NCBI RefSeq assembly: GCF_965233695.1
Contig: NZ_OZ247497.1
Span: forward strand, 2,495,277 to 2,559,276
From: Parasphingorhabdus sp.
GTDB taxonomy: Bacteria; Pseudomonadota; Alphaproteobacteria; Sphingomonadales; Sphingomonadaceae
Direction of reading: 5' to 3'
Length of the DNA stretch: 64,000 bases
Shown: positions 6,786 to 18,949 of the stretch, piece by piece
Numbering within the stretch: position 1 is the first letter of the stretch
Layout: each line of letters begins with the position of its first letter
Position numbers and translations under genes: made by a program
The notes under the pieces: model-generated
What the model was told of the DNA's origin: nothing
Database searches by the model: none
What the model saw: the letters and a program-made list of their open reading frames with translations, nothing else

Positions 6786-9686
6786 ATGCGACAGATATCC
6801 CGGTTGCGATTTCTCAATGCGCTGGTTGTCATATCCTGCTTATTCGTTGCAACTCCTGCATTGACACAGGCGAGCAATCAAAACGCCGGCTTCGCCCATG
6901 ACGGGAGTGACCTGAAACCAGATTCCCGGGTCATTTACGGGACACTCGACAATGGCCTGCGCTATGCGGTGATGAAGAACAGCACGCCCAGCGGGGTTGC
7001 AGCGTTGCGGATGCGGATAGCCACCGGTTCGCTGAACGAGACGGACGAGCAGCAGGGGATTGCTCATTTCCTTGAACATATGGCTTTTAACGGTTCCAAA
7101 AATGTTGCCGAAGGGGAAATGATCAAGCGGCTCGAGCGCTATGGTCTGTCCTTTGGCGCGGACACCAATGCCAGTACCGGTTTCAGCCAAACGACGTACA
7201 AGCTAAACCTGCCCACTGTCGGCGAAGAAATACTGAACGAAGCCTTTTTCCTCATGCGGGAAACAGCGCAAAACCTGACGCTTGATAAAGATGCCATCGA
7301 GCGCGAACGCGGCGTTATTGCTTCGGAAAAACGCAGCCGGGATTCGGTCAACTTTCAGGCATTGATTGCCAATATGGGTTTCCTGACCGAAGGCAGCGGA
7401 CTGGTTGATCGCTTGCCCATTGGCAAAGACGAAACCATCGCGACAATGCCGCGCTCAGAATTTGTCAAATATTATCGTGGTTATTACCATCCGGAAAACA
7501 CCTTCATCGCCTTTATCGGGGATGTGGACACCAATCTGGCAATCAAAAAGATCGAAACCTATTTTGGTAACTGGCAACCACCTTCGGCCCCTGCGCCCGC
7601 GGCGCAAATCCCGCCGGTAAATATCGTTCCTGGAAAAGTCGGCTATCATCAGAACGACGAGATATTGACCTTTGTTTCGCTTGGTATCAAGCATCCCTAT
7701 GAAAAGCGTCCGGATAATCTGGCGCGACGCAAAGAGGGCTTTCTGCGTGCGCTGGGGGCACAGATTGTCAATCGCCGCCTGGATCGCAAAGTCGATTCAG
7801 GTGACGCCCCCTATCTTGATGCGTCAATCTCCCGCTATGCACCGGAGGATACGGTGGACGCATGGGTCATCCGCATGCGCAGCAATCCGGAAAACTGGCG
7901 CGCAGCGCTGGCTGGGGGAGACCAGGAAATACGCCGCGCCTTTACCTATGGTTTTTCCCAATCGGAACTGGATGAAGCACTGGCGCGGTGGCGAAAAAGA
8001 CTGGAGGTGGCAGTTGACCGAAAAGCTACGCGCAAGACCTATGCGGGATTGGAGTATAACTATGCCAAGGAACTGGTCGATAGCTTCGCCAATGAGCGTG
8101 TTTTCACTGCGCCGGAAGATGATCTCGATCGGTTCGAAAAATTTGCTGCAGAGATATCATTGGCCGATGTCGAGAGGGTCTTTCGTGAACGCTGGACGGG
8201 AATTGAAAAACCATTTGTCTATCTTGCGACTAGCGCAAAGCTGGACAATCCCGAAGCGGAGATACGATCTGCTCTAGACGCATCACGTAAGATTGCGGTT
8301 TCACCTTTGGAGAGCGATCAGGCGAAAAAATTTGCCTACACCAATTTTGGCCAAAAGGGACTCGTGGTGAAGGAAGCTTATTTGCCTGATGCGGATGCTT
8401 ACTCGATACTATTTGCCAATAATGTGCGGCTTAATTTCAAACAGACCGATTTTGATGCCGATACCATTGGCATTCGAGTAAGAATTGGCAGTGGATTTCT
8501 CTCCATGCCACAAAAGGATGAAAGCTTGCGACGCCTGGCTGAAAACCTTTTAAATGGTAGCGGCGTTCAAGAGCATAGCGCAGATGAGCTGCATACGCTT
8601 TTTGCCGGTAAACGTGTCGGGACAAGAGTGCGTCTGCGTCCGGATAACGATGCGCTAGAAATTATCGGTGGAACCAACCGGGAGAACCTGTCCGATCAAC
8701 TCAATCTGATGACTGCCCATGTGACGGCTCCAGCCTATCGGGAGCAAACTGTTAGGCGCTATCATGACAAGATGAAAGCATGGTATCCGACACATGATGC
8801 GACGCCGCTGACCGTAGCAGAGAAGGAATTACCGCGCATGATAAGGTCCGGTGATCGTCGTTATGGATACGACGATTTGGAGAGCTTTCTAGCGCCTACG
8901 ATCGAGGATGTGCGCGACTGGATGGGGCCGCAACTCGAAAATGGTTTGATCGAAATCACAATCGTTGGCGATGTCGACCGAGCAACAACAATTGCTGAAG
9001 TTGCCCGGACCTTTGGTGCATTGAGCAAAAGAGCAGACAGCAAGGAAAAATATACCGATATGCGCAAGCTGGATTTCCCGGCGCCGCCAGCCGATCCGTT
9101 TGTTTATTATCATCAGGGCAATGCAGACCAGGCCGTCGTCCGGGTTTACTGGCCAGCACCCGATGCGTCGGATCCCGCCAGTATTTTTAAAATGCAAGTG
9201 TTGCGAAGCATTTTTCGTAACCAGCTGACAACGGTCCTCAGGGAGGAAATGGGGGCGACCTACTCGCCAGGCGCAGGTCTATTCGTCAACGATCTGTTCG
9301 AGGGCTATGGCTATATTTTTGCCAGCGTGATCGCAGCGCCGGATCAAGTCGATGCCGTGCGTCAGGCCATATTGGAGGTAGGACAGGATCTTGCGGGTGG
9401 AACCATTGATCAGGATATTTTCGGGCGCGCGTTGAAACCTATTGTCGATGATATTGACAGCACGCTGCAAAACAACAGCTATTGGCTTTCCGTGTTGGGC
9501 GATGCGCAGACCGAGGGGCACGGGATTGTCAGGCACCGACAGCGCGAGTCGGTTCTCAAGATGATGGCAGTTGAAGATATAAACGCCTTGGCAGCCGAGG
9601 TTTTTGTCGGGAAAAATGCTGTCGCTGCTTATGTTTTGCCGATCACGCAGCAAGAGGACATGATGGAAATGGTACAGCGACCATAA
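6786..9686 (+). CDS. Periplasmic M16 (insulinase/PqqL-like) zinc metalloprotease
   Basis: Signal peptide; inverted zincin motif IAHFLEHMAFNGS; GTLDNGLRY, ADTNAST, IERERGVI; about 966 aa two-half architecture. Confidence 0.92.
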   Translation: MRQISRLRFLNALVVISCLFVATPALTQASNQNAGFAHDGSDLKPDSRVIYGTLDNGLRYAVMKNSTPSGVAALRMRIATGSLNETDEQQGIAHFLEHMAFNGSKNVAEGEMIKRLERYGLSFGADTNASTGFSQTTYKLNLPTVGEEILNEAFFLMRETAQNLTLDKDAIERERGVIASEKRSRDSVNFQALIANMGFLTEGSGLVDRLPIGKDETIATMPRSEFVKYYRGYYHPENTFIAFIGDVDTNLAIKKIETYFGNWQPPSAPAPAAQIPPVNIVPGKVGYHQNDEILTFVSLGIKHPYEKRPDNLARRKEGFLRALGAQIVNRRLDRKVDSGDAPYLDASISRYAPEDTVDAWVIRMRSNPENWRAALAGGDQEIRRAFTYGFSQSELDEALARWRKRLEVAVDRKATRKTYAGLEYNYAKELVDSFANERVFTAPEDDLDRFEKFAAEISLADVERVFRERWTGIEKPFVYLATSAKLDNPEAEIRSALDASRKIAVSPLESDQAKKFAYTNFGQKGLVVKEAYLPDADAYSILFANNVRLNFKQTDFDADTIGIRVRIGSGFLSMPQKDESLRRLAENLLNGSGVQEHSADELHTLFAGKRVGTRVRLRPDNDALEIIGGTNRENLSDQLNLMTAHVTAPAYREQTVRRYHDKMKAWYPTHDATPLTVAEKELPRMIRSGDRRYGYDDLESFLAPTIEDVRDWMGPQLENGLIEITIVGDVDRATTIAEVARTFGALSKRADSKEKYTDMRKLDFPAPPADPFVYYHQGNADQAVVRVYWPAPDASDPASIFKMQVLRSIFRNQLTTVLREEMGATYSPGAGLFVNDLFEGYGYIFASVIAAPDQVDAVRQAILEVGQDLAGGTIDQDIFGRALKPIVDDIDSTLQNNSYWLSVLGDAQTEGHGIVRHRQRESVLKMMAVEDINALAAEVFVGKNAVAAYVLPITQQEDMMEMVQRP

Positions 9687-9948
9687 TTCTTCACTAATTG
9701 TTTCTGTGTCATTGCAGGGAATGTTGTGCGCAAAGCTTCCCGCTATTGCGACCAGCAAGCAGGCAGCACGAATCTGGCAAAGAACCTTTCCGTAGCGTAC
9801 GGAAAAACTCCTTGCCCAAAATTTCCAAGGCAGCTGCCATCGCAGCTTTGTTTCATCGGGCCTAAAACCTTGAGGCCAGGTTTTTCCTTGGAATATCCTG
9901 AAATTTCAATGTCGATCACCAGGAAGTGACGCCCTGTTCTATTTCCGT

Positions 9949-10002
9949 TTGACAGCCTTTCAGCCTTAACATTATAAGATAATGCGAATCATAATCATTA
10001 TC
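9949..10002 (+). promoter_or_regulatory. Sigma70-type promoter overlapped by two staggered Fur boxes
   Basis: TTGACA at 9949-9954 and TATAAG at 9973-9978. GATAATGCGAATCATAATCATTATC (9978-10002) holds two 19-mers offset by 6 bp, each matching 16/19 to GATAATGATAATCATTATC. Confidence 0.85.
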
Positions 10003-10022
10003 AATAATACCCAGGTGAACTT

Positions 10023-12275
10023 ATGAAACAGCTTTCATGCCGCAAGCGGCCTATCTTCGCGTGCAGCACGATTGCGCTATGCTTTTCTCAAGCGGTTTAT
10101 GCAGCGGATGATGTTGACGATGGGTTCGATGCGAATGAAGGCATAACCGTCACTGCAACCCGCGCACCTGTTGCTATTGAGGACGCGCCCGCAACGGTAA
10201 CGGTCATTGATGCAGAGCGGCTCGCAGATGAACTGGCAACTGACGTTCGCGACATTGTCCGTTTCGAACCGGGTATTTCCGTACGCCGTGCACCGGCGCG
10301 TTTTGGCGCGGCTTTGGGCTCCACGGGCAGGGCAGGGAATGAGGATTTCAACATTCGAGGCATCGGCGGCAACCGCGTGCTCATCCAGGTAGACGGCATT
10401 CGCTCGCCACAAGGATTTAGTTTTGGTGCGCAGGATGTCGGCCGCGGCAACGCAACAGATGTCGGTCTTATCAAATCGGTGGAGATCCTCCGCGGTCCAG
10501 CCTCGGCGCTCTACGGCAGCGATGGGCTGTCCGGTGTTGTCAGTTTTACGACATCTGACCCCGTTGATTTTATTGCAGGCGGTAATGCTGTCGGTGGTTT
10601 TGCGCGGGCACAATATAGTTCCGCGGATGAAGAATTTTCCGAGACAATCGCCATTGCCGGGCAGACGGGTGATTTTTCCGCCATGCTGGCTTACTCACGC
10701 CGTGATTTCAAGGAACTCGATAATCAGGGCACAAATGACGTCGAAGGTTCCGAACGGACGACGCCAAATCCACAAGACGGCCAGTCCGACGCGTTTCTGG
10801 GCAAGCTGGTCTGGAACAACGGTGGCCACCGTGTCCGATTGACCGGCGAATATCTGAAACGGGAAGTTTCGTCCAATGTGCTGTCCGGATTAGGACCGGT
10901 TTTTCTGTTTCCAGGACCGCCGAGCTGGATCGTCGATAGCTTGACCGCCGAAGACAGCACTGAACGGGTGCGTGCGTCGATTGACTGGACTTATGAAACT
11001 GAAGAAGATGGTGTCGGATTGATTGATTACGCGCATGTCGCTGCCTATTGGCAGGATGGCGAGGATGTTCAGTTCGCGAGCGAGGGGCGGATTGCAACCG
11101 GAGCAACGCCGCGGCCAGATCGCGAGCGCCTAAATACATTCAACAATCGCGTCTATGGCGTCGCTGCTGACTTCCGGTCAAGCTTCACTACCGGGCCAAT
11201 CAGGCACAATATCACCTATGGCGGTGACTATAGCATTACTCGGCAAGACGGCCTGCGCGATGGTTTGGTTCCGCCAACCGGTGAATTTTTCCCGTCCCGC
11301 GCTTTCCCTGTAACCGATTTTTCGCTGGGCGGTTTTTTCATCGGTAATGCAATGGAATTTGCCGACGGCATCTTCACGCTCTACCCGGCTCTGCGCTTCG
11401 ACTTCTACGACCTCAATCCTGAAGAAGACCCCCTGCTGCCGGGTTTTGTTCCAACCGGACAAGATGGATCAAAAATCTCGCCGAAAGTCGGCGCGGTCTG
11501 GAAATTGGGTGGTAATGTCCGCATGTTCGGCAATTATGCCCGCGGCTTTCGTGCACCTACGCCCAGTCAGGTCAATAATTTCTTCGAGAATCTAGCCTTT
11601 GGCTACACATCGGCACCAAATCCTGATCTGGACCCGGAAACGAGCGAAAGCTTTGAGGCCGGAATCCGGTATAATGCAGACGGAATTGATCTCGGCCTCA
11701 CAGTCTTCTCGGCAAACTATGACGACTTTATCAGTCAGGAAGTAATCGGGGGTTCCTTCACGCCTGCCGATCCGGCGGTATTCCAGTTTATCAATCTGAA
11801 CAGTGTCGATGTATATGGGATTGAGGCCCGCGCTTCTTATGAAGCCGAAAATGGTTTTCGCGCACGGTTTGCCATCGCCTTTGCGGACGGAACGGTGGAA
11901 GCGCCCGACACGACCGATATATCTTTATCGACGATTGATCCGCTCAATGCGATTCTGGGCGTGGGATATCGCGATCCCGGCAATCGGTTCGGCGGCGAGA
12001 TGATTATCTCTTACAATGCGCGCAAGGAAGCCAACGAAACCATTGGCGTGTGCAATGAGGTCTGTTTCCGTCCCGATGAGTCGGCAATTATCGATGCGAC
12101 CGCATTTTACCGGATCACAGACAATTTTACGATCCGGGCCGGCATATTCAACATTACTGACAAGAAATATGCGCTGTGGAGCGACGTTCGCGGATTGAGC
12201 GCATCATCCAGCATTACCGACGCTTTCACCCAGCCCGGACGGAATGCGAGCATTTCCATCAGCGCCAGCTTTTAA
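10023..12275 (+). CDS. TonB-dependent heme/hemoglobin-family receptor
   Basis: FRAP and NPDL motifs (GFRAPTP...APNPDLDPE); plug EILRGPASALYGSDGLSGVV; terminal Phe; Fur boxes upstream. Confidence 0.88.
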   Translation: MKQLSCRKRPIFACSTIALCFSQAVYAADDVDDGFDANEGITVTATRAPVAIEDAPATVTVIDAERLADELATDVRDIVRFEPGISVRRAPARFGAALGSTGRAGNEDFNIRGIGGNRVLIQVDGIRSPQGFSFGAQDVGRGNATDVGLIKSVEILRGPASALYGSDGLSGVVSFTTSDPVDFIAGGNAVGGFARAQYSSADEEFSETIAIAGQTGDFSAMLAYSRRDFKELDNQGTNDVEGSERTTPNPQDGQSDAFLGKLVWNNGGHRVRLTGEYLKREVSSNVLSGLGPVFLFPGPPSWIVDSLTAEDSTERVRASIDWTYETEEDGVGLIDYAHVAAYWQDGEDVQFASEGRIATGATPRPDRERLNTFNNRVYGVAADFRSSFTTGPIRHNITYGGDYSITRQDGLRDGLVPPTGEFFPSRAFPVTDFSLGGFFIGNAMEFADGIFTLYPALRFDFYDLNPEEDPLLPGFVPTGQDGSKISPKVGAVWKLGGNVRMFGNYARGFRAPTPSQVNNFFENLAFGYTSAPNPDLDPETSESFEAGIRYNADGIDLGLTVFSANYDDFISQEVIGGSFTPADPAVFQFINLNSVDVYGIEARASYEAENGFRARFAIAFADGTVEAPDTTDISLSTIDPLNAILGVGYRDPGNRFGGEMIISYNARKEANETIGVCNEVCFRPDESAIIDATAFYRITDNFTIRAGIFNITDKKYALWSDVRGLSASSSITDAFTQPGRNASISISASF

Positions 12276-12301
12276 TGCTATTAAGACGAGGAGAACCAAC
12301 G

Positions 12302-13312
12302 ATGAAACTGAGATATTATGCTGGCCTGCTGGCTGTAGCGATGGCTCCAACGCCGCTATGGGCGAGCCAACCCGCAACCATTCAAACCGAAACCACAAAG
12401 AACGCAGCCTTTGAACAAGACCGCGCAGATATTCTGGCGATGGCCGGGAACTATAAAGTGCGGTTTGATATGCAGGAATCAACCGCATGGCAGGAAGACT
12501 ATGAGCCTCGCGAGCGCAAGATTTCAGGCGGTAATGAAGTGGTGCGCGTAATTGAAGATACAGGCACCAAAATCATTCTCCAGCATTTGCTGGTGGTTGA
12601 TATGGGCGACGGCAAAGACTTCATTGTGAAGCATTGGCGTCAGGATTGGGAATATGAACCGCAGCATATTCTCGTATACTCCGACCGTCATCGCTGGTCA
12701 CTTGAACCTGTTCCGGCTCAGCAACGCAAGGGACAATGGTCTCAAACGGTATATCAGGTGGATGACAGCCCGCGCTATGCTGGGATCGGTGCATGGGAAA
12801 CCGAAGCCGGTATTCGGCGTTGGAGCTCCAACTGGACTTGGCGTCCGCTCGCCCGGCGCGATGCGGTACGTGATCCGGTTTACGATCGCTATTATGCGAT
12901 CAACCGGCACTCCCCGATGCCGAATGGCTGGATCCATTTTCAGGACAATACAAAAATGGGCATGATCGATGGCAAGCTGACGCCGATTGTTCAGGAATAT
13001 GTGCTGAACACCTACACCAAATTTGATGATTATAATGTCAAAGCGGCCGATGATTATTGGGCAAAGACCAAGGACTATTGGGCAGAGGTCCGGGCATCAT
13101 GGGACAAGGCCTTTGCCTCCCATCGCGGCGTAACCGTGGAAGAGGAAGCGCAGACAGGTACGGTGATCAGCGGCGAACTGCTCAGCATGGGAACGAAAAT
13201 TGCAGACGGAGAAATGGATGCCGGAGTGGCATCCGACAAAGCCAGAAGCCTTATTGCCCGAGCAACAAAGCCGGACGCTTTGAGAACGGCGACGAATAGC
13301 CAGGCACGCTAA
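12302..13312 (+). CDS. Secreted protein of unknown function, DUF6607-like
   Basis: RBS GAGGAG before ATG 12302; signal peptide; FEQDRADILAMAG, KHWRQDWEYE, WSQTVYQVDDSPRY and WRPLARRD motifs. Family assignment is from memory, not from a search. Confidence 0.65.
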   Translation: MKLRYYAGLLAVAMAPTPLWASQPATIQTETTKNAAFEQDRADILAMAGNYKVRFDMQESTAWQEDYEPRERKISGGNEVVRVIEDTGTKIILQHLLVVDMGDGKDFIVKHWRQDWEYEPQHILVYSDRHRWSLEPVPAQQRKGQWSQTVYQVDDSPRYAGIGAWETEAGIRRWSSNWTWRPLARRDAVRDPVYDRYYAINRHSPMPNGWIHFQDNTKMGMIDGKLTPIVQEYVLNTYTKFDDYNVKAADDYWAKTKDYWAEVRASWDKAFASHRGVTVEEEAQTGTVISGELLSMGTKIADGEMDAGVASDKARSLIARATKPDALRTATNSQAR

Positions 13313-13481
13313 ACCCATACCGGCCTTTGCCATATTGGGTCGTGGCTGGCCAAATATGTACTGTTGAAAATTTTTGCGTAGTAACTGGCTTATACTCTGT
13401 TAATGACATGGCGGCTGGCAGCGCTGTGGATTGTAGTTGGTCCAGTTCATGCGTCATATCCTAGCTAACAAGGAGCAATTC

Positions 13482-14519
13482 ATGCGTTTTGGTATCTTCG
13501 GTCTCGTCATAGCAATTCTGGGACTGTCCGCGTGCAGCGGCGGTGCGCCCGACGGTGCTGGTGCCTCTGAAGGGAAAGTGTTGGTTGTATTTTCGTCCCG
13601 CCACTATGATTCGGATTATGCGCTTTATGACGCTTTTGAAGAGGCGACCGGCGTTGATGTCCGCACGATTGAAGCCGACGGTGATCTTCTGGTCGAGCGC
13701 TTGAAAGCCGATGGCAAACGCAGCCCTGCCGATGTTATCGTGACAGTCGATGCCGGACGTCTCTGGCGGGCTGAACAGGAAGGGCTTTTCGCGCCTCTCG
13801 ATTCCGCTAAGCTGAATGAAGCTGTCCCGGCCGGCATGCGGCATCCTGATGGTCTCTGGTTTGGCCTAGCTAAACGCGCTCGCGTGCTGGTTTATGCCCC
13901 TGACCGGGTCGATGAAGCCAAGCTGACCGGATATGAATCGCTCGCCGATCCCGCTTTCAAGGGTAAGGTATGTGCGCGGTCATCCGGCAATATCTACAAT
14001 ATTTCTTTGCTGGCAGCATTGATCGACCGGTGGGGAACAGAAAAGGCGCAGGAATGGGCGACCAATGTCGCTGGCAATTTTGCCCGTGATCCTCTGGGCG
14101 GCGATACAGACCAGATCAAGGCGGTTGCCGCTGGCGAATGTGATATTGCGCTGGTCAATCACTATTATTTCGCTCGGCTGATGAACGATGAAAAAGACAA
14201 AGGCTTAGTCGAGAACCTGGCGGTTTACTGGCCGAACGCCGATGCCGGTGTTCACGTCAACCTTTCGGGGGCTGGCGTTGCCAAAAATGCGCCTAACCCG
14301 GAACTCGCGCGGCAGTTTATCGAATTTGCGATGACCGAACAGCCGCAGCGTTTTTTCGCTGAACTGACGAACGAATATCCAGTCGTACCGACAATCAAAT
14401 ATGAAAATGCCGCGCTGGAAAAACTGGGTGAGTTTAAAGAAGATCCGATAGCGCTTTCAAAACTGGGTGAAAATCAGGCGGAGGCTCAACGGCTGTTTGA
14501 TCGCGCCGGTTGGCCCTGA
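13482..14519 (+). CDS. Fe(3+) ABC transporter substrate-binding lipoprotein (FutA/FbpA-like)
   Basis: RBS AAGGAG; lipobox LSAC; SSRHY, SPADV, DAGRL and VNHYY motifs. Confidence 0.9.
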   Translation: MRFGIFGLVIAILGLSACSGGAPDGAGASEGKVLVVFSSRHYDSDYALYDAFEEATGVDVRTIEADGDLLVERLKADGKRSPADVIVTVDAGRLWRAEQEGLFAPLDSAKLNEAVPAGMRHPDGLWFGLAKRARVLVYAPDRVDEAKLTGYESLADPAFKGKVCARSSGNIYNISLLAALIDRWGTEKAQEWATNVAGNFARDPLGGDTDQIKAVAAGECDIALVNHYYFARLMNDEKDKGLVENLAVYWPNADAGVHVNLSGAGVAKNAPNPELARQFIEFAMTEQPQRFFAELTNEYPVVPTIKYENAALEKLGEFKEDPIALSKLGENQAEAQRLFDRAGWP

Positions 14520-14537
14520 TTCCCGATTTCGGTTAAT

Positions 14538-16148
14538 ATGGGGCAATATACGCAGCGAATTTGGCGCGGGATCAGCCCGACGCCCTTAGGCGTGATCGCG
14601 GCCCTTATCTGCACCTTGCCGGTCGTGGCCCTGATCCCACTAGGGCTAACTGGCGGTGGCAGTCACATGGGCCATTTGTGGGATACCCAGCTTGCCGATT
14701 ATGTCAGCAACTCGGCCGCTTTATTGGTCATTACTCTATTTGGAACCCTTTTGCTGGGCGTGCCTACCGCCTGGATGACCTCGCGCTTTGATTTTCCGGG
14801 TAGGCGGATATTGCTGGTCGCATTGCCGTTATCCCTCGCCATGCCCAGCTATGTTTCGGCCTATGCCTGGTTATCGATGACCGCTGTTGGAGGTCCTGTT
14901 TATGATGCCACGGCTGGTGCCATCCCCACTGTTAGTGGTCTTTTGGGAGCTGGCTTTGTTTTCTCGATATCCTTTTATCCCTATGTTTTTCTTCTCGCGC
15001 GGCAGGCTTTTGAAAGCAGCGGTACCAACAGTTTTGAAGCAGCGCGAACCCTAGGCGCGAGCCCGTTGCAGGCATTCTTCACCGTCTCCCTGCCGCTCGC
15101 ACGACCCGCGATAATGGCCGGGACAGCGCTGGTGGCCATGGAAACGCTGGCCGACTATGGCACCGTCGATTTTCTGGGTACGCCAACATTCACGGTGGGT
15201 ATTCTCCGGTCCTGGATTTCTTTCGGCGATCCGCAAGCTGCAGCGCGACTGGCTCTTATTCTGTTGTTGGTAACCTTGCTCATTTTCGGTGGAGAGCGGC
15301 TGGCGCGGCGCGGTGCCCGGGTCGCGGAAGCCGGCGGCCGGAACAAACCACAACACCGGGTCCAGTTGTCACGCTCTGCTACGCTGATTACGATCCTGCT
15401 CTGCGCCATACCGGTATTTTTTGGTCTGATCGCGCCCGGCGCTCATCTCGTTTCACTCGCTGTGGAAACGCAGCCCGTTCGCTCTCCGCTCGAAGCCTTT
15501 TGGGGCACGATAAAGGTTGCTTCTTTATCAGCGCTGGTTGCCGCCATTCTGGGCATGGGCGCAGCATATGCCGCCCGCACCGGAGGCTGGTTTGCGAACG
15601 CGGCGGTCCGCGCGGCCCATACGGGCTATGCCGTTCCCGGTGCCGTTGCCGCGCTCGGTGTAATCGCACTGATCTCTGCATCGCAGACCCTGCTGACCAC
15701 AATATCAGGGTCGGCAGCGCCGTTGATAGCGGGCGGTGGACTAGTTGCCCTGCTGTTTGCCTATCAGGCCCGCTTTGCAGCCGCCGCCATCAGTCCGTGT
15801 GAGACTGCGCTTGGCCGCATCACGCCATCAATGGATCAGGCTGCACGGTCGCTTGGTGCCAGCCCATGGGCGGTTATTGGCCGTATTCATTTGCCACTGG
15901 CGTTCAGCGGTATTGCCACAGCCGCGTTGTTGGTGTTTGTGGAAGTGATGAAAGAACTTCCCGCCACCATGATCTTGCGTCCGCTGGATTTCGAAACGCT
16001 GGCCGTCAGCGCACATCATTATGCTTCTGACGAGCGGCTATCCCAAGCGGCGCTGCCGTCCCTAATGCTTGTCGCAATCGGATTGCCAATCATGATGATC
16101 GTCAGCTGGCTCGTGTCGCGCGGCCAAACGGAAAGTGCAGGGGCATGA
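14538..16148 (+). CDS. Fe(3+) ABC transporter permease (FbpB-like)
   Basis: Two BPD_transp halves (EAARTLG, QAARSLG); METLADYG and MKELPAT motifs. Confidence 0.9.
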   Translation: MGQYTQRIWRGISPTPLGVIAALICTLPVVALIPLGLTGGGSHMGHLWDTQLADYVSNSAALLVITLFGTLLLGVPTAWMTSRFDFPGRRILLVALPLSLAMPSYVSAYAWLSMTAVGGPVYDATAGAIPTVSGLLGAGFVFSISFYPYVFLLARQAFESSGTNSFEAARTLGASPLQAFFTVSLPLARPAIMAGTALVAMETLADYGTVDFLGTPTFTVGILRSWISFGDPQAAARLALILLLVTLLIFGGERLARRGARVAEAGGRNKPQHRVQLSRSATLITILLCAIPVFFGLIAPGAHLVSLAVETQPVRSPLEAFWGTIKVASLSALVAAILGMGAAYAARTGGWFANAAVRAAHTGYAVPGAVAALGVIALISASQTLLTTISGSAAPLIAGGGLVALLFAYQARFAAAAISPCETALGRITPSMDQAARSLGASPWAVIGRIHLPLAFSGIATAALLVFVEVMKELPATMILRPLDFETLAVSAHHYASDERLSQAALPSLMLVAIGLPIMMIVSWLVSRGQTESAGA

Positions 16149-17185
16149 CCGATACCATGATGACCGGCCGCGGTCTGGTGAAATCGCATCGCGGACGGCG
16201 GGTACTTGATACCGTCGATATCGATCTCAAGCGAGGATGCATCACTGCCATTCTCGGCCCCTCGGGAGCAGGGAAATCAACTTTGCTGCGGGTCATGGCT
16301 GGCCTTGAAGATCTGGATTCCGGTGAAATCGCCGGATCAGGGCAACTGCTAACCAACGGCCAGGTCATCGTTCCGCCTGAAAAGCGCAGTGTTGGTCTGG
16401 TTTTTCAGGACTTTGCGCTGTTTCCGCATCTGACTGCACTGGGCAATGTCATGTTCGGATTGCGTTCCGGTCCGGCCGCATCCCGCCGCGAAATAGCAAT
16501 GGATCGATTGGCTGCGGTGCAGATGGATGACAGGGCGGATGCCTATCCACACACATTATCGGGGGGCGAGCAGCAGCGGGTTGCCTTGGCGCGTGCGCTT
16601 GCGCCCGAGCCGGAAATCGTTCTGCTCGATGAAGCATTTTCCGGATTGGATGCCCACCTGCGTTCCGAACTGCGTGATATGGCTGTGCGCGAACTGAAAA
16701 GGTCAGGCGCTGCTGTGCTGGTCGTGACACATGATGCTGAAGAAGCACTGTATATGGCGGATGAGCTTGCCTTGATGGTCGATGGCGCGATCATTCAGTC
16801 AGGCACACCGTCAGATGTATATCTCAAACCGCAATCACTTTCGGCGGCCCAGTTGCTGGGCGAAGTCAATATTTGGGCAGGTCGTGTTGCCAATGGTGTC
16901 CTCGAAAGTCCGTTCGGAACGGTGAACGCGGACCAGATAGATGATGGCGGTGAGGCCAGTTTATTGATCCGGCCTGAAGGTGTGATGCTGGATGATGCCA
17001 AACCGGATGGCCGGTTTTCAGTCGCGGAAGTCCATCCTCTCGGCGCCACCGCTACGGTCAAAGTGCAGGCGCTATCCGGAGAATGCTGGCAAGCCAGAGT
17101 GCCGACCTCGCGTAGGTTGAAAGCGGGCATGTTGGTGTCGATTGAACTGGATCCCTCTCTGGTCAGCGTCGTAGCGGAACTATAA
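16145..17185 (+). CDS. Fe(3+) ABC transporter ATP-binding protein (FbpC-like)
   Basis: Walker A GPSGAGKS, signature LSGGEQQR, Walker B LLDEAFS, FQDFALFPH; 4-bp overlap with the permease. Confidence 0.92.
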   Translation: MTDTMMTGRGLVKSHRGRRVLDTVDIDLKRGCITAILGPSGAGKSTLLRVMAGLEDLDSGEIAGSGQLLTNGQVIVPPEKRSVGLVFQDFALFPHLTALGNVMFGLRSGPAASRREIAMDRLAAVQMDDRADAYPHTLSGGEQQRVALARALAPEPEIVLLDEAFSGLDAHLRSELRDMAVRELKRSGAAVLVVTHDAEEALYMADELALMVDGAIIQSGTPSDVYLKPQSLSAAQLLGEVNIWAGRVANGVLESPFGTVNADQIDDGGEASLLIRPEGVMLDDAKPDGRFSVAEVHPLGATATVKVQALSGECWQARVPTSRRLKAGMLVSIELDPSLVSVVAEL

Positions 17186-17521
17186 AGCCAGCCTATCTCA
17201 CACGGTCAATTTGACAAGCGCGACCCAGTCTTTGTTTTTTGTTGCCGATGGCGCGGCCAGGTTCAGCCAAACGGTTTCTGAAAAGCTGAGCAACCCGCTT
17301 CGATCATAAGGTTTCAGTAAATGTGATTTCGATTAGAGCTGAATTGGAAAATGCTTTCCTACATCTTGGCACCTGTGCAATGGTCAGATTGCCCTATTGC
17401 AACCAAAATCCATGGCACATCGCATTTTGACCCGTAAAATCCGTGCGATTTTTTATCGATTCTGTGTCGAAGCTGTATAATCTTTATGTTGGGAGCCAGA
17501 AAGCTGAACGAATCACTTTGG

Positions 17522-18949
17522 CTATTTGCGATAATCGAGCGGCGGCTCGCGATCGCCGAGTAACGACTTGTAGACATAATCCGGCCCTCGCGCCTTGTCG
17601 AATTCGGCCTTGGCCTCTGCGCGCAATTCCGGATTGGTATAGAGTTCAATCGCGGCAAGGGTCAGTGTCTTGGCAGCAGCTTGCGTGCCCTTGAAGCCGA
17701 TCGACATGCCGCTGGCCGCCGATGACTGCCAGCTATGGGCAGAGGTGCCAGGTACCCATGTTGCGGTGCGCAGGCCGACGGTGGGCGTCGCATAAGACAC
17801 ATCACCGACATCGGTCGAGCCATAGCCCAGCGTAACTTCATAGGGCTGGATCTCTGCCTGGCTACCCAGCTCCAGTTCGGGGTTGTCAAAGCTGGCATAG
17901 ATAGTCTCGGCAAATTTCTGCTCTTCCGGAGAGTAGCTGATCCCACCGACCTGACGCAGTTTTGCGTCCATCATCTTGGCCAGCGGTTCGTTGACCAGCA
18001 GCGGATTGTTTCCGTGGATTACTTCCCAATCCACCTTGGTGCCGGTACCGAGCGCTGCGCCGCGCGCGGCATCTTCGAGGCGCTTCCAGATGGCGTCGAC
18101 ACCGTCGGGATCGGGATGGCGGACATAGTAAAAGACTTCGGCAAAATCCGGAACGACATTGGGCGCGGTGCCGCCGTCGGTAATTACATAGTGAATACGT
18201 GAATCCTGCGGCACATGTTCACGCATCATGTTGATCATGAGGTTGAACGCTTCTACTCCGTCAAGAGCGGAGCGGGCTTTTTCCGGAGCACCAGCCGCGT
18301 GGGCAGATACGCCGCGGAACCGAAATTTGGCAGAGCGGTTGGCCAATGTGGTTCTGGCTGCAGCGGAGTTTTCATCACCGGCATGCCAGTGCAAGGCAAA
18401 ATCAACATCGTCGAATAGCCCTGCGCGTACCATATAGACCTTGCCGCTACCGCCTTCTTCGGCCGGCGTACCATAAAGGCGGACACGACCGGGCGTGCCC
18501 GTTGCTTCCAGCCATTTCTTTACCGCAATAGCGGCCTCGAGCGACCCGGCGCCAAACAAGTTATGGCCACAGGCATGGGCCGCACTCTTGCCGGCAATGG
18601 GGGACCGCGTTGCGACAGCATCCTGATTTATGCCGGGCAGGGCGTCATATTCTGCCAATATGGCGATCACCGGGCCGCCCTTGCCATATTCCGCGACAAA
18701 GGCTGTGGGGATTTCGGCAACACCTGTGTCTATGTTAAATCCTTGCGCTCTCAACTGCTGCTGCAACAGGGCGCTGGCTTTTTCCTCCTGGTATCCAACT
18801 TCAGCCCAGTCCCATATCTGCCGTGCTACACCAGCTGTGTTGTTATAACGTGCATCTATATCTTGCAGGACTTTGATCTCTTGTGCGTCCTCGGCATGAA
18901 CAACAGATGGCATCGTGGTAAGCGCGAATAAGATGGCAAAGCGTTTCAT
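17522..18949 (-). CDS. Secreted M20-family amidohydrolase (AbgB-like)
   Basis: Signal peptide; LAEYDALPG, HACGHN, GTPAEEGG, GSTDVGDVS motifs. Confidence 0.88.
   Translation of the reverse strand: MKRFAILFALTTMPSVVHAEDAQEIKVLQDIDARYNNTAGVARQIWDWAEVGYQEEKASALLQQQLRAQGFNIDTGVAEIPTAFVAEYGKGGPVIAILAEYDALPGINQDAVATRSPIAGKSAAHACGHNLFGAGSLEAAIAVKKWLEATGTPGRVRLYGTPAEEGGSGKVYMVRAGLFDDVDFALHWHAGDENSAAARTTLANRSAKFRFRGVSAHAAGAPEKARSALDGVEAFNLMINMMREHVPQDSRIHYVITDGGTAPNVVPDFAEVFYYVRHPDPDGVDAIWKRLEDAARGAALGTGTKVDWEVIHGNNPLLVNEPLAKMMDAKLRQVGGISYSPEEQKFAETIYASFDNPELELGSQAEIQPYEVTLGYGSTDVGDVSYATPTVGLRTATWVPGTSAHSWQSSAASGMSIGFKGTQAAAKTLTLAAIELYTNPELRAEAKAEFDKARGPDYVYKSLLGDREPPLDYRK

What the first reader, a model, noticed from the sequence alone, without database searches (positions are those of the whole stretch)
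10023..17185. Heme-type receptor plus unknown secreted protein plus free-iron ABC, with no hemin ABC or heme oxygenase
Seen: gene order receptor, DUF6607-like exported protein, FutA/FbpABC-like transporter; no HmuTUV, HemS/HmuS or HemO in the window. Inference: iron may be removed from heme in the periplasm by or with the DUF6607-like protein and imported as Fe3+, which would be a non-canonical heme-iron route. The protein has several His, Tyr and Trp residues that could bind a porphyrin.
Basis: inference. Interest (0 to 1): 0.62.

Follow-up and report, generated by a model that had tools for sequence, protein, structure and literature searches.

The report
Heme-capture pair fused to ferric-iron importer
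An iron-starvation operon in a sphingomonad joins a heme receptor and a homologue of the recently solved RhuH heme-scavenging protein to the cell's only ferric-iron pump, in a genome with no recognised way to import or break down heme, so how the iron leaves the heme is open.

Summary
On the + strand, behind one of the best Fur-box matches in the genome, lie five genes:
- a PhuR-like TonB-dependent receptor (10023-12275)
- a DUF6607 protein (12302-13312)
- a FutA-type Fe3+ binding lipoprotein (13482-14519)
- a fused permease
- an ATPase (to 17185)

The "unknown" protein is not unknown. It is a homologue of RhuH, the Riemerella anatipestifer haemophore (PDB 8XJC). The match has E 3e-47, a predicted fold TM of 0.91, and the heme-iron ligand His conserved as His111.

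The 4.2-Mb genome has no HemS, no heme oxygenase, no Dyp and no HutZ. Its only FecCD importer sits behind a cobalamin riboswitch.

Across about 150 related loci, receptor plus DUF6607 is a stand-alone two-gene module. FutABC joins it only in the window's closest relatives, where the five genes keep together in three different flanks. It also joins independently, in divergent orientation, in one Caulobacteraceae MAG.

The heme-capture reading is strong. Serial hand-over of heme iron to FutABC after release in the periplasm is plausible but unproven (about 30%). A dechelating role for DUF6607 has no direct support.

I rate this a new variant of a known kind, of moderate interest.

The parts
9966..9995 (+). 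Sigma-70-like promoter (TTAACA, 18 nt, CATAAT) that overlaps the Fur box
   Evidence: Best promoter-like match in 9600-17600, 10 of 12 positions.
9978..10008 (.). Fur box made of overlapping 19-mers (GATAATGCGAATCATAATCATTATCAATAAT)
   Evidence: Two overlapping matches, each with 3 mismatches to GATAATGATAATCATTATC. Only 5 sites in the 4.2-Mb genome match that well. A Fur-like box is kept at the same place in L091, L092 and L094.
10023..12275 (+). TonB-dependent receptor of the heme/hemoglobin/transferrin class, PhuR-like, 750 aa
   Evidence: TIGR01786 scores 384 bits and TIGR01785 scores 353 bits, both above cut-off. The best solved relative is PhuR (8THE), E 2.8e-90 over the full length. The FRAP box is present and NPDL replaces NPNL. 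It is the only receptor of this class in the genome.
12302..13312 (+). DUF6607 / RhuH-family heme-binding protein, 336 aa, with a Sec signal peptide and no lipobox
   Evidence: PF20311 scores 191 bits. PDB 8XJC (RhuH) matches at E 3e-47. The AF2 model has pLDDT 88.6, and Foldseek to 8XJC gives TM 0.91 and rmsd 2.6 A. His111 corresponds to RhuH His96. R158, Y159, R186 and Q214 are conserved.
13370..13408 (+). Conserved intergenic element of unknown role in the 169-nt gap between DUF6607 and futA
   Evidence: The same roughly 39-nt stretch occurs in the gap of L094, whose proteins are 79% identical. It is absent from the 63-nt gap of L091. No Fur box and no Rfam match.
13482..14519 (+). FutA/IdiA-type Fe3+ binding protein, 345 aa, lipoprotein (lipobox LSAC18)
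   Evidence: Matches Synechocystis FutA2 (2VOZ) at E 7e-96 and Trichodesmium IdiA (6G7N) at E 3e-94. The five Fe3+ ligands are conserved as H41, Y42, Y172, Y228 and Y229. Single copy in the genome.
14538..16148 (+). FbpB-type fused permease with two BPD_transp_1 domains, 536 aa
   Evidence: Pfam finds two stretches of PF00528. Single copy in the genome.
16145..17185 (+). FbpC-type ABC ATPase with a TOBE_2 domain; its start overlaps the permease stop by 4 nt
   Evidence: PF00005 and PF08402 both match. The ferric ABC ATPase model NF008513 scores 195 bits, below its cut-off.

Best explanation
This is a Fur-repressed composite iron-acquisition operon.

Its first two genes form a heme-capture module found widely in Pseudomonadota: a PhuR-like TonB-dependent receptor and, 26 nt downstream, a Sec-exported RhuH-family (DUF6607) protein. 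That protein binds heme through His111 and hands it to, or receives it from, the receptor. The last three genes are a FutA/FbpBC ferric-iron ABC importer, the only one in the genome.

Shown here:
- the identity of all five proteins
- the conserved heme ligand in DUF6607 and the conserved Fe3+ ligands in FutA
- a single Fur box
- the absence of recognised heme importers and heme-degrading enzymes

Inferred:
- heme is the ligand
- the five genes are one transcript

I read the link to FutABC as a recent joining of two iron-supply modules into one transferable, co-regulated cassette, in a narrow clade close to Parasphingorhabdus by best protein hits. It is not the normal state of the DUF6607 module.

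What happens to heme after the outer membrane is not encoded in any recognisable way. I put about 30% on the iron being released outside the cytoplasm and entering through FutABC. The rest I put on an unrecognised route for intact heme, or on direct use of heme.
For: Identity of the parts:
- Protein family assignments.
- DUF6607 matches RhuH at E 3e-47. The predicted fold matches 8XJC with TM 0.91, and no other fold comes close.
- His111 is kept in at least 90% of 31 diverse family members.
- In RhuH, mutating the equivalent His96 to Ala lowers heme affinity about a million-fold (PMC11967795).

The pair as the conserved unit:
- The receptor-then-DUF6607 order is present in 70 of 80 genome loci with nothing else conserved.
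- It also holds in 17 of 19 wider Pseudomonadota loci and in most of 49 long metagenome loci.

Regulation and the importer:
- The Fur box is among the 5 best matches in the genome. There is none before futA.
- The FutA ligands are conserved.
- FutA and FbpB are single copy.

The five-gene cluster:
- It is kept in relatives whose DUF6607 is 96%, 85% and 79% identical, in three different flanking contexts.
- It is absent at 75% identity or less.
Against: - The receptor lacks PhuR's heme ligands: His124 aligns to Arg and Tyr519 to Asn. It also has no His between the FRAP and NPNL boxes; a 96%-conserved Tyr528 sits there instead. Heme as its ligand therefore rests on family membership and on its partner.
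The 169-nt gap before futA, with its conserved element, could hold a separate promoter.
- A pure co-regulation reading does not explain why FutABC joined this module twice independently (L071).
- It also does not explain how any DUF6607-bearing sphingomonad gets iron out of heme without HemS or heme oxygenase.
Confidence: 0.7

Rival explanations
1. Serial route. Heme enters the periplasm through the receptor. Its iron is released there, by DUF6607 itself or by an unknown partner. FutA picks it up as Fe3+ and FbpBC pumps it in. The five genes are then a complete outer-membrane-to-cytoplasm pathway for heme iron.
For: - The genome has no heme ABC importer, HemS, heme oxygenase, Dyp or HutZ.
- Among sampled Sphingomonadaceae, 0 of 41 have HemS and 3 of 41 have a heme oxygenase, including 19 of 21 DUF6607-positive genomes with neither.
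- A single Fur box precedes all five genes.
- The cluster moves as a unit across three flanking contexts.
- FutABC has joined the module independently, in divergent orientation, in L071.
- The DUF6607 family has many invariant polar residues besides the heme ligand.
- Periplasmic removal of iron from heme followed by free-iron import has precedents (PMC6460266, PMC3577903).
Against: - The receptor-DUF6607 pair stands alone in more than 95% of about 150 loci.
- FutA is found in only 3 of 41 family genomes, and in 1 of 21 DUF6607-positive ones.
- G135 has both, 580 kb apart.
- RhuH was found outside the cell and was described as a binder, not a degrader (PMC11967795).
- No dechelatase-like or oxygenase-like domain is present in the cluster.
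Confidence: 0.3
2. Intact heme crosses the inner membrane by an unrecognised carrier and is degraded, or used as a cofactor, by unrecognised cytoplasmic proteins. FutABC is an unrelated inorganic-iron route that only shares the Fur promoter.
For: - The genome has 8 ABM-domain proteins, one with a faint HmuQ-like hit of 21 bits. It also has a PNPOx-like protein with a faint HutZ hit of 18 bits.
- Both are the superfamilies that hold IsdG-type and HugZ-type heme-degrading enzymes.
- FeoB is present as a second iron route.
- The pair works without FutABC in most genomes.
Against: - None of these candidates reaches a curated cut-off. The ABM candidate lacks the IsdG-like spacing between its Trp and His.
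- The only type-II (FecCD) ABC importer is controlled by a cobalamin riboswitch and lies among cobalamin genes.
- No candidate lies near the module in any of about 150 loci.
Confidence: 0.25
3. The ligand is not heme. The receptor-DUF6607 pair strips or carries ferric iron from some other complex and passes Fe3+ to FutA, as TbpA passes transferrin iron to FbpA in Neisseria.
For: - The receptor scores highest with the model that also covers transferrin and lactoferrin receptors.
- It lacks the known heme ligands of PhuR.
- FutA is a lipoprotein that could sit close to the receptor.
Against: - The best full-length relative is the heme receptor PhuR. TbpA matches only in the plug region.
- The receptor is 750 aa, not about 900 aa.
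- The heme-iron ligand His and four of the five propionate-binding residues of RhuH are conserved in the partner protein.
- Most such pairs have no FutA in the genome.
Confidence: 0.08

Closest known systems
RhuH-RhuR(-RhuA) heme uptake of Riemerella anatipestifer (PDB 8XJC; PMC11967795)
   Same: Same protein family (DUF6607): 34% identity, fold TM 0.91, and a conserved heme-iron His in the KHWRQDW motif. In both, the gene lies next to a Fur-regulated heme-type TonB receptor and the protein has a Sec signal without a membrane anchor.
   Different: - Here the gene follows the receptor on the same strand; in Riemerella it diverges from it.
- There is no HmuY-like RhuA here.
- The host is an alphaproteobacterium. 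The paper places the family mainly in Flavobacteriales.
- A ferric ABC importer is attached.
- RhuH Arg183 is Ala199 here.
PhuR / HasR-HasA heme receptor systems of Pseudomonas aeruginosa
   Same: The receptor is homologous to PhuR over its full length (E 2.8e-90). It is iron-regulated and paired with a soluble heme-binding protein.
   Different: - No PhuSTUVW or HemO equivalent exists anywhere in the genome.
- PhuR ligands His124 and Tyr519 are not conserved.
- The partner protein has an unrelated fold.
TbpA/TbpB with FbpABC of Neisseria and Haemophilus
   Same: A receptor from the same NCBIfam family is coupled in function to a periplasmic Fe3+ binding protein and an FbpBC pump, so that only iron crosses the inner membrane.
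   Different: - The receptor is much shorter than TbpA and closer to heme receptors.
- The partner is not TbpB-like.
- FutA belongs to the cyanobacterial FutA/IdiA branch with four Tyr and one His ligand.
EfeUOB/EfeB of E. coli, FepABC of S. aureus, and Bacteroides FeoAB with CobN-like BtuS/HmuS
   Same: These are precedents for taking iron out of heme outside the cytoplasm and importing it with a free-iron transporter (PMC3577903, PMC6460266).
   Different: - No Dyp peroxidase is present (tested) and no FTR1-type permease motif was found. CobN-like genes were not searched for.
- The importer here is an Fe3+ ABC system.
- The extracting activity, if it exists, is unidentified.
FutABC / IdiA of cyanobacteria (2VOZ, 2PT1, 6G7N)
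   Same: The window's FutA is closely similar to them (E 7e-96 to FutA2, 2VOZ) and keeps the same five Fe3+ ligands. The fused permease and the ATPase have the same architecture.
   Different: Here the system is co-located with a TonB-dependent receptor in an alphaproteobacterium whose family rarely has FutA (3 of 41 genomes).

Membership tests
RhuH haemophore family (Pfam DUF6607, PF20311) | Significant match to the family profile and to the solved member | tested here: met
   PF20311 scores 191 bits against a cut-off of 27. 8XJC matches at E 3e-47 over residues 29-295.
RhuH haemophore family (Pfam DUF6607, PF20311) | Beta-barrel-like N-terminal domain with a C-terminal helical domain, a fold unlike other haemophores | tested here: met
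   The AF2 model has pLDDT 88.6 and pTM 0.85. Foldseek to 8XJC_A gives E 1e-26, TM 0.91 normalised to the target, and rmsd 2.6 A. The next hits have TM below 0.55.
RhuH haemophore family (Pfam DUF6607, PF20311) | Heme-iron ligand His96 and the propionate-binding residues R143, Y144, R170, R183 and Q198 | tested here: met
   His111, R158, Y159, R186 and Q214 align to these residues and are invariant or at least 90% conserved in 31 members. R183 aligns to Ala199, so that one is not kept.
RhuH haemophore family (Pfam DUF6607, PF20311) | High-affinity heme binding, heme extraction from hemoglobin, and release outside the cell | not testable with these tools
   Only a Sec signal peptide can be read from the sequence. 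The location (periplasm, vesicles or medium) is unknown.
TonB-dependent heme/hemoglobin receptors (TIGR01785/TIGR01786) | Score above the curated family cut-offs, with plug and barrel domains | tested here: met
   TIGR01786 scores 384 bits (cut-off 324) and TIGR01785 scores 353 bits (cut-off 317). Plug and barrel domains are both found.
TonB-dependent heme/hemoglobin receptors (TIGR01785/TIGR01786) | FRAP and NPNL boxes with a heme-ligand His between them, and a His in the plug | tested here: not met
   FRAP is present and NPDL replaces NPNL. No His lies between the boxes; Tyr528 does, and it is kept in 96% of 81 orthologues. PhuR His124 aligns to Arg and Tyr519 to Asn.
FutA/FbpA ferric binding protein with FbpBC pump | Fe3+ ligands (one His and four Tyr in the FutA2 class), a fused double permease, and an ATPase with a TOBE domain | tested here: met
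   H41, Y42, Y172, Y228 and Y229 align to the FutA2/IdiA ligands. Two BPD_transp_1 stretches are found in the permease, and ABC_tran plus TOBE_2 in the ATPase.
Canonical heme utilisation (HmuTUV/PhuTUV with HemS/PhuS or HemO) | A heme-specific type-II ABC importer and a cytoplasmic heme-binding or heme-degrading protein | tested here: not met
   No HemS and no heme oxygenase. The single FecCD system lies among cobalamin genes behind a cobalamin riboswitch of 118 bits. HutZ gives only 18 bits against a cut-off of 225.
IsdG/HmuQ-type heme-degrading monooxygenases | ABM fold with the Asn/Trp/His catalytic triad and a family-level score | tested here: inconclusive
   There are 8 ABM proteins. The best HmuQ score is 21 bits against a cut-off of 130, and in that protein the His lies 5 residues after the Trp rather than 9-10.
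EfeUOB/EfeB periplasmic heme deferrochelation | A Dyp-type peroxidase with an FTR1 permease | tested here: not met
   No Dyp_perox_N match in the genome. No open reading frame carries two REGLE motifs.

The most novel reading that the evidence does not exclude
DUF6607 proteins of Proteobacteria may be more than heme binders. They could be the missing agent that frees iron from heme outside the cytoplasm, by dechelation or by ring opening. Generic iron importers (FutABC here, FeoB elsewhere) would then complete the uptake. That would explain why sphingomonads and caulobacters carry receptor-DUF6607 pairs without any heme ABC importer, HemS or heme oxygenase.
Probability: 0.12. Interest if true: 0.8.

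Novelty: new variant of a known kind. Interest (0 to 1): 0.48.

Why it matters
- The RhuH haemophore family, described in 2025 as mainly a Flavobacteriales trait, is in fact widespread in Alphaproteobacteria. More than 5000 database proteins match it, and about 15% of sampled Sphingomonadaceae genomes carry it, always beside a heme-type receptor.
- These bacteria lack every recognised inner-membrane heme importer and heme-degrading enzyme that I tested for. They either use heme iron by an undescribed route or use the module for something else.
- The window's clade is the most useful place to test this. There the module is welded to a ferric-iron ABC importer behind one Fur box, which makes a clean prediction: heme-iron use should depend on futABC.
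- Heme is a significant iron pool in seawater and soil, so the answer bears on how common free-living heterotrophs obtain iron.

Tried and rejected
- **Fur-box scan of the genome and Pfam on genes next to the 10 best other sites.** This found another TonB receptor, a flavin reductase-like protein and unrelated genes. Nothing was heme-related.
- **ABM proteins and a PNPOx-like protein as hidden heme-degrading enzymes.** Only faint, sub-threshold hits came back, so these were neither accepted nor excluded.
- **The FecCD system as a heme importer.** Rejected. It has a cobalamin riboswitch upstream and cob genes around it. Its ATPase does score 239 bits with a heme ABC ATPase model whose cut-off is 261. 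Its orthologue lies next to the cluster in L091.
- **Domain fusions of DUF6607.** Only a tandem double-DUF6607 protein was found, with no informative partner.
- **Conserved neighbours in about 150 loci.** None beyond the receptor. One family has a DUF4198 gene downstream, and another has a 206-aa gene with no Pfam match between receptor and DUF6607.
- **Rfam on the cluster.** No match.
- **Literature search for DUF6607.** No paper uses the name.
- **Synteny in the same-genus genome G101.** This genome lacks both DUF6607 and FutA.
Full report
**What is there.**
The stretch 10023-17185 carries five genes on the + strand.

1. The first is a 750-aa TonB-dependent receptor. It exceeds the curated cut-offs of the hemoglobin/transferrin/lactoferrin model (TIGR01786, 384 bits against 324) and the heme/hemoglobin model (TIGR01785, 353 against 317). 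Its best solved relative is the Pseudomonas heme receptor PhuR (8THE), at E 2.8e-90 over the full length.
2. The DUF6607 gene starts 26 nt after the receptor's stop. The longest frame begins at GTG 12176, but the real start is ATG 12302. This is the start gene callers use in near-identical contigs, and it gives a typical Sec signal, MKLRYYAGLLAVAMAPTPLWA|S, with no lipobox.
3. A FutA-type binding protein follows after a 169-nt gap. Its real start is ATG 13482, behind the ribosome-binding site AAGGAG, and it has the lipobox LSAC.
4. A fused two-domain permease follows (14538-16148).
5. An ATPase with a TOBE domain ends the cluster (16145-17185). Its start overlaps the permease stop by 4 nt.

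Upstream, 9978-10008 holds overlapping Fur boxes (GATAATGCGAATCATAATCATTATC). Each has 3 mismatches to the 19-nt consensus, and only five sites in the 4.2-Mb genome match that well. The best promoter-like site of the region overlaps them. The gap before futA has no Fur-like site, either here or in the three closest relatives.

**The "unknown" protein is a RhuH homologue.**
A search of solved structures found PDB 8XJC, "haemophore", at E 3e-47. This is RhuH of Riemerella anatipestifer (PMC11967795). According to that paper:
- RhuH binds heme with a Kd of 3.4e-11 M and takes heme from hemoglobin.
- It is found in the medium and in vesicles.
- Its gene lies next to the Fur-regulated heme receptor gene rhuR.
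- His96 coordinates the heme iron, and H96A lowers affinity about a million-fold.

In the window protein, His96 is His111 within the same KHWRQDW motif. The propionate-binding residues R143, Y144, R170 and Q198 are R158, Y159, R186 and Q214. Only R183 is lost, being Ala199 here.

In an alignment of 31 members down to 28% identity, these residues are invariant or at least 90% conserved. An AlphaFold2 model built on that alignment is confident (pLDDT 88.6, pTM 0.85). It matches 8XJC with TM 0.91 and rmsd 2.6 A, and nothing else in the PDB comes close. Family membership is therefore well founded.

**The importer is a true ferric system.**
The binding protein matches Synechocystis FutA2 (2VOZ, E 7e-96), Trichodesmium IdiA (6G7N) and FutA1. 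The His-Tyr pair of the N-terminal lobe and the three Tyr of the C-terminal lobe ligate Fe3+ in FutA2/IdiA (PMC6254336). They align to H41, Y42, Y172, Y228 and Y229 here. FutA and FbpB are single copy in the genome. A FeoB is also present elsewhere.

**The missing heme genes are missing genome-wide.**
The window lies in a complete 4.2-Mb single-contig genome.
- It has no HemS/ChuS domain, no heme oxygenase and no Dyp peroxidase.
- For HutZ it gives only an 18-bit hit against a cut-off of 225, to a generic PNPOx-like protein.
- It has one FecCD permease. That gene sits between a BtuB-like receptor and CobO, CbiB, CobQ, CobT and CobS genes, behind a cobalamin riboswitch of 118 bits. It is therefore a corrinoid system.
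- Eight ABM-domain proteins exist. The best HmuQ score among them is 21 bits against a cut-off of 130, without IsdG-like spacing of the catalytic residues.
- ChuW/HutW and CobN-like dechelatases were not searched for.

**What is conserved elsewhere.**
- In 80 genome loci (Sphingomonadales, Caulobacterales and a few others), the receptor-then-DUF6607 order is present in 70. Clustering of all neighbouring reading frames found nothing else conserved.
- The same holds in 19 loci drawn from across the phylum. In one family the receptor is a different one and points the other way, as in Riemerella.
- It also holds in 49 long metagenome loci.
- DUF6607 occurs in 22 of 151 Sphingomonadaceae genomes. 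A same-genus genome lacks it.
- Of 41 sampled family genomes (21 with DUF6607, 20 without), none has HemS and three have a heme oxygenase. Nineteen of the 21 DUF6607-positive genomes have neither.
- FutA is rare, found in 3 of 41 genomes and in only 1 of the 21 with DUF6607. In that one (G135) it lies 580 kb from the module as a separate operon.

**Where FutABC is linked.**
The closest relatives of the window protein (96%, 85% and 79% identity) all keep the five-gene cluster, in three different flanking contexts. Relatives at 75% identity or less have only the pair. One Caulobacteraceae MAG (L071) has a complete futA-fbpB-fbpC set placed divergently, right next to its receptor-DUF6607 pair. 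Its proteins are 43-48% identical to the window's, so this is an independent joining. The link is therefore rare but has arisen at least twice, and once formed it travels as a unit.

**How it most likely works.**
Well supported:
- Under iron limitation Fur releases the promoter.
- The receptor and the RhuH-like protein form a heme-capture pair.
- FutA/FbpBC imports Fe3+.

Inferred:
- Heme is the ligand. The receptor lacks PhuR's His124 and Tyr519 and has no His between the FRAP and NPDL boxes. A Tyr at position 528 is conserved in 96% of 81 orthologues.
- All five genes are co-transcribed.

The open step is what happens to heme in the periplasm. My estimates:
- About 25%: an unrecognised carrier and enzyme handle intact heme.
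- About 8%: the ligand is not heme.
- The remainder: simple co-regulation, with heme used in ways not yet described.

The serial idea is not new in kind. EfeB/EfeUOB, and Bacteroides FeoAB with its CobN-like proteins, do the same job with other parts (PMC3577903, PMC6460266). A catalytic role for DUF6607 itself has no direct evidence. The only hint is the unusual number of invariant polar residues in the family.

**Verdict.**
The finding is best filed as a new variant of a known kind: a RhuH-type haemophore and receptor pair in Alphaproteobacteria, here fused to a ferric ABC importer, in a lineage without recognisable heme import or degradation. Two notes from earlier readers on other genomes described the same two-gene unit. 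My locus surveys confirm that this pair is the conserved module.

Noticed in passing
window 13370-13408: A roughly 39-nt element (ATTTTTGCGTAGTAACTGGCTTATACTCTGTTAATGACA) in the gap between DUF6607 and futA is conserved in L094, a relative whose DUF6607 is 79% identical. It is absent from the shorter gap of L091. It is not a Fur box and has no Rfam match. It could be an internal promoter or a regulator site.
   Followed up: partly
genome C1:2778287-2789022 (outside the window; locus L133): The genome's only FecCD-type ABC importer lies in a cobalamin uptake and salvage operon behind a cobalamin riboswitch (118 bits). Its ATPase scores closer to a heme ABC ATPase model (239 bits, cut-off 261) than to the E. 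coli BtuD model. In relative L091 the orthologous system lies directly upstream of the five-gene cluster.
   Followed up: partly
L099:8878-9498 (also in L100 and L102): In one gammaproteobacterial family a conserved gene of about 206 aa, with no Pfam match, sits between the receptor and DUF6607.
   Followed up: no
L106:8664-9485 (also in L107-L109): In another alphaproteobacterial family a DUF4198 periplasmic protein gene directly follows DUF6607. The neighbouring receptor there is a different one and is transcribed divergently, as in Riemerella.
   Followed up: no
protein P0126 (673 aa, metagenome representative): This protein is a tandem duplication of two DUF6607 domains in one chain. Many other family members carry a lipobox Cys instead of a plain signal peptide, which suggests outer-membrane-anchored forms.
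   Followed up: partly
window 13482-14519: FutA here is a predicted lipoprotein (LSAC, with Ser after the Cys) and not a free periplasmic protein. If it is anchored to the outer membrane it would sit near the receptor's periplasmic face.
   Followed up: no
literature against databases (PMC11967795): The RhuH paper places the family mainly in Weeksellaceae and Flavobacteriaceae. The protein searches here found over 5000 homologues and 831 clusters at 50% identity, with many in Sphingomonadales and Caulobacterales.
   Followed up: yes
window 6786-9686 and 17522-18949: The cluster is flanked by an M16 (pitrilysin-like) peptidase gene upstream and a convergent M20 amidohydrolase gene downstream. 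These flanks are kept only in the 96%-identical contigs, not in the 85% and 79% relatives.
   Followed up: yes
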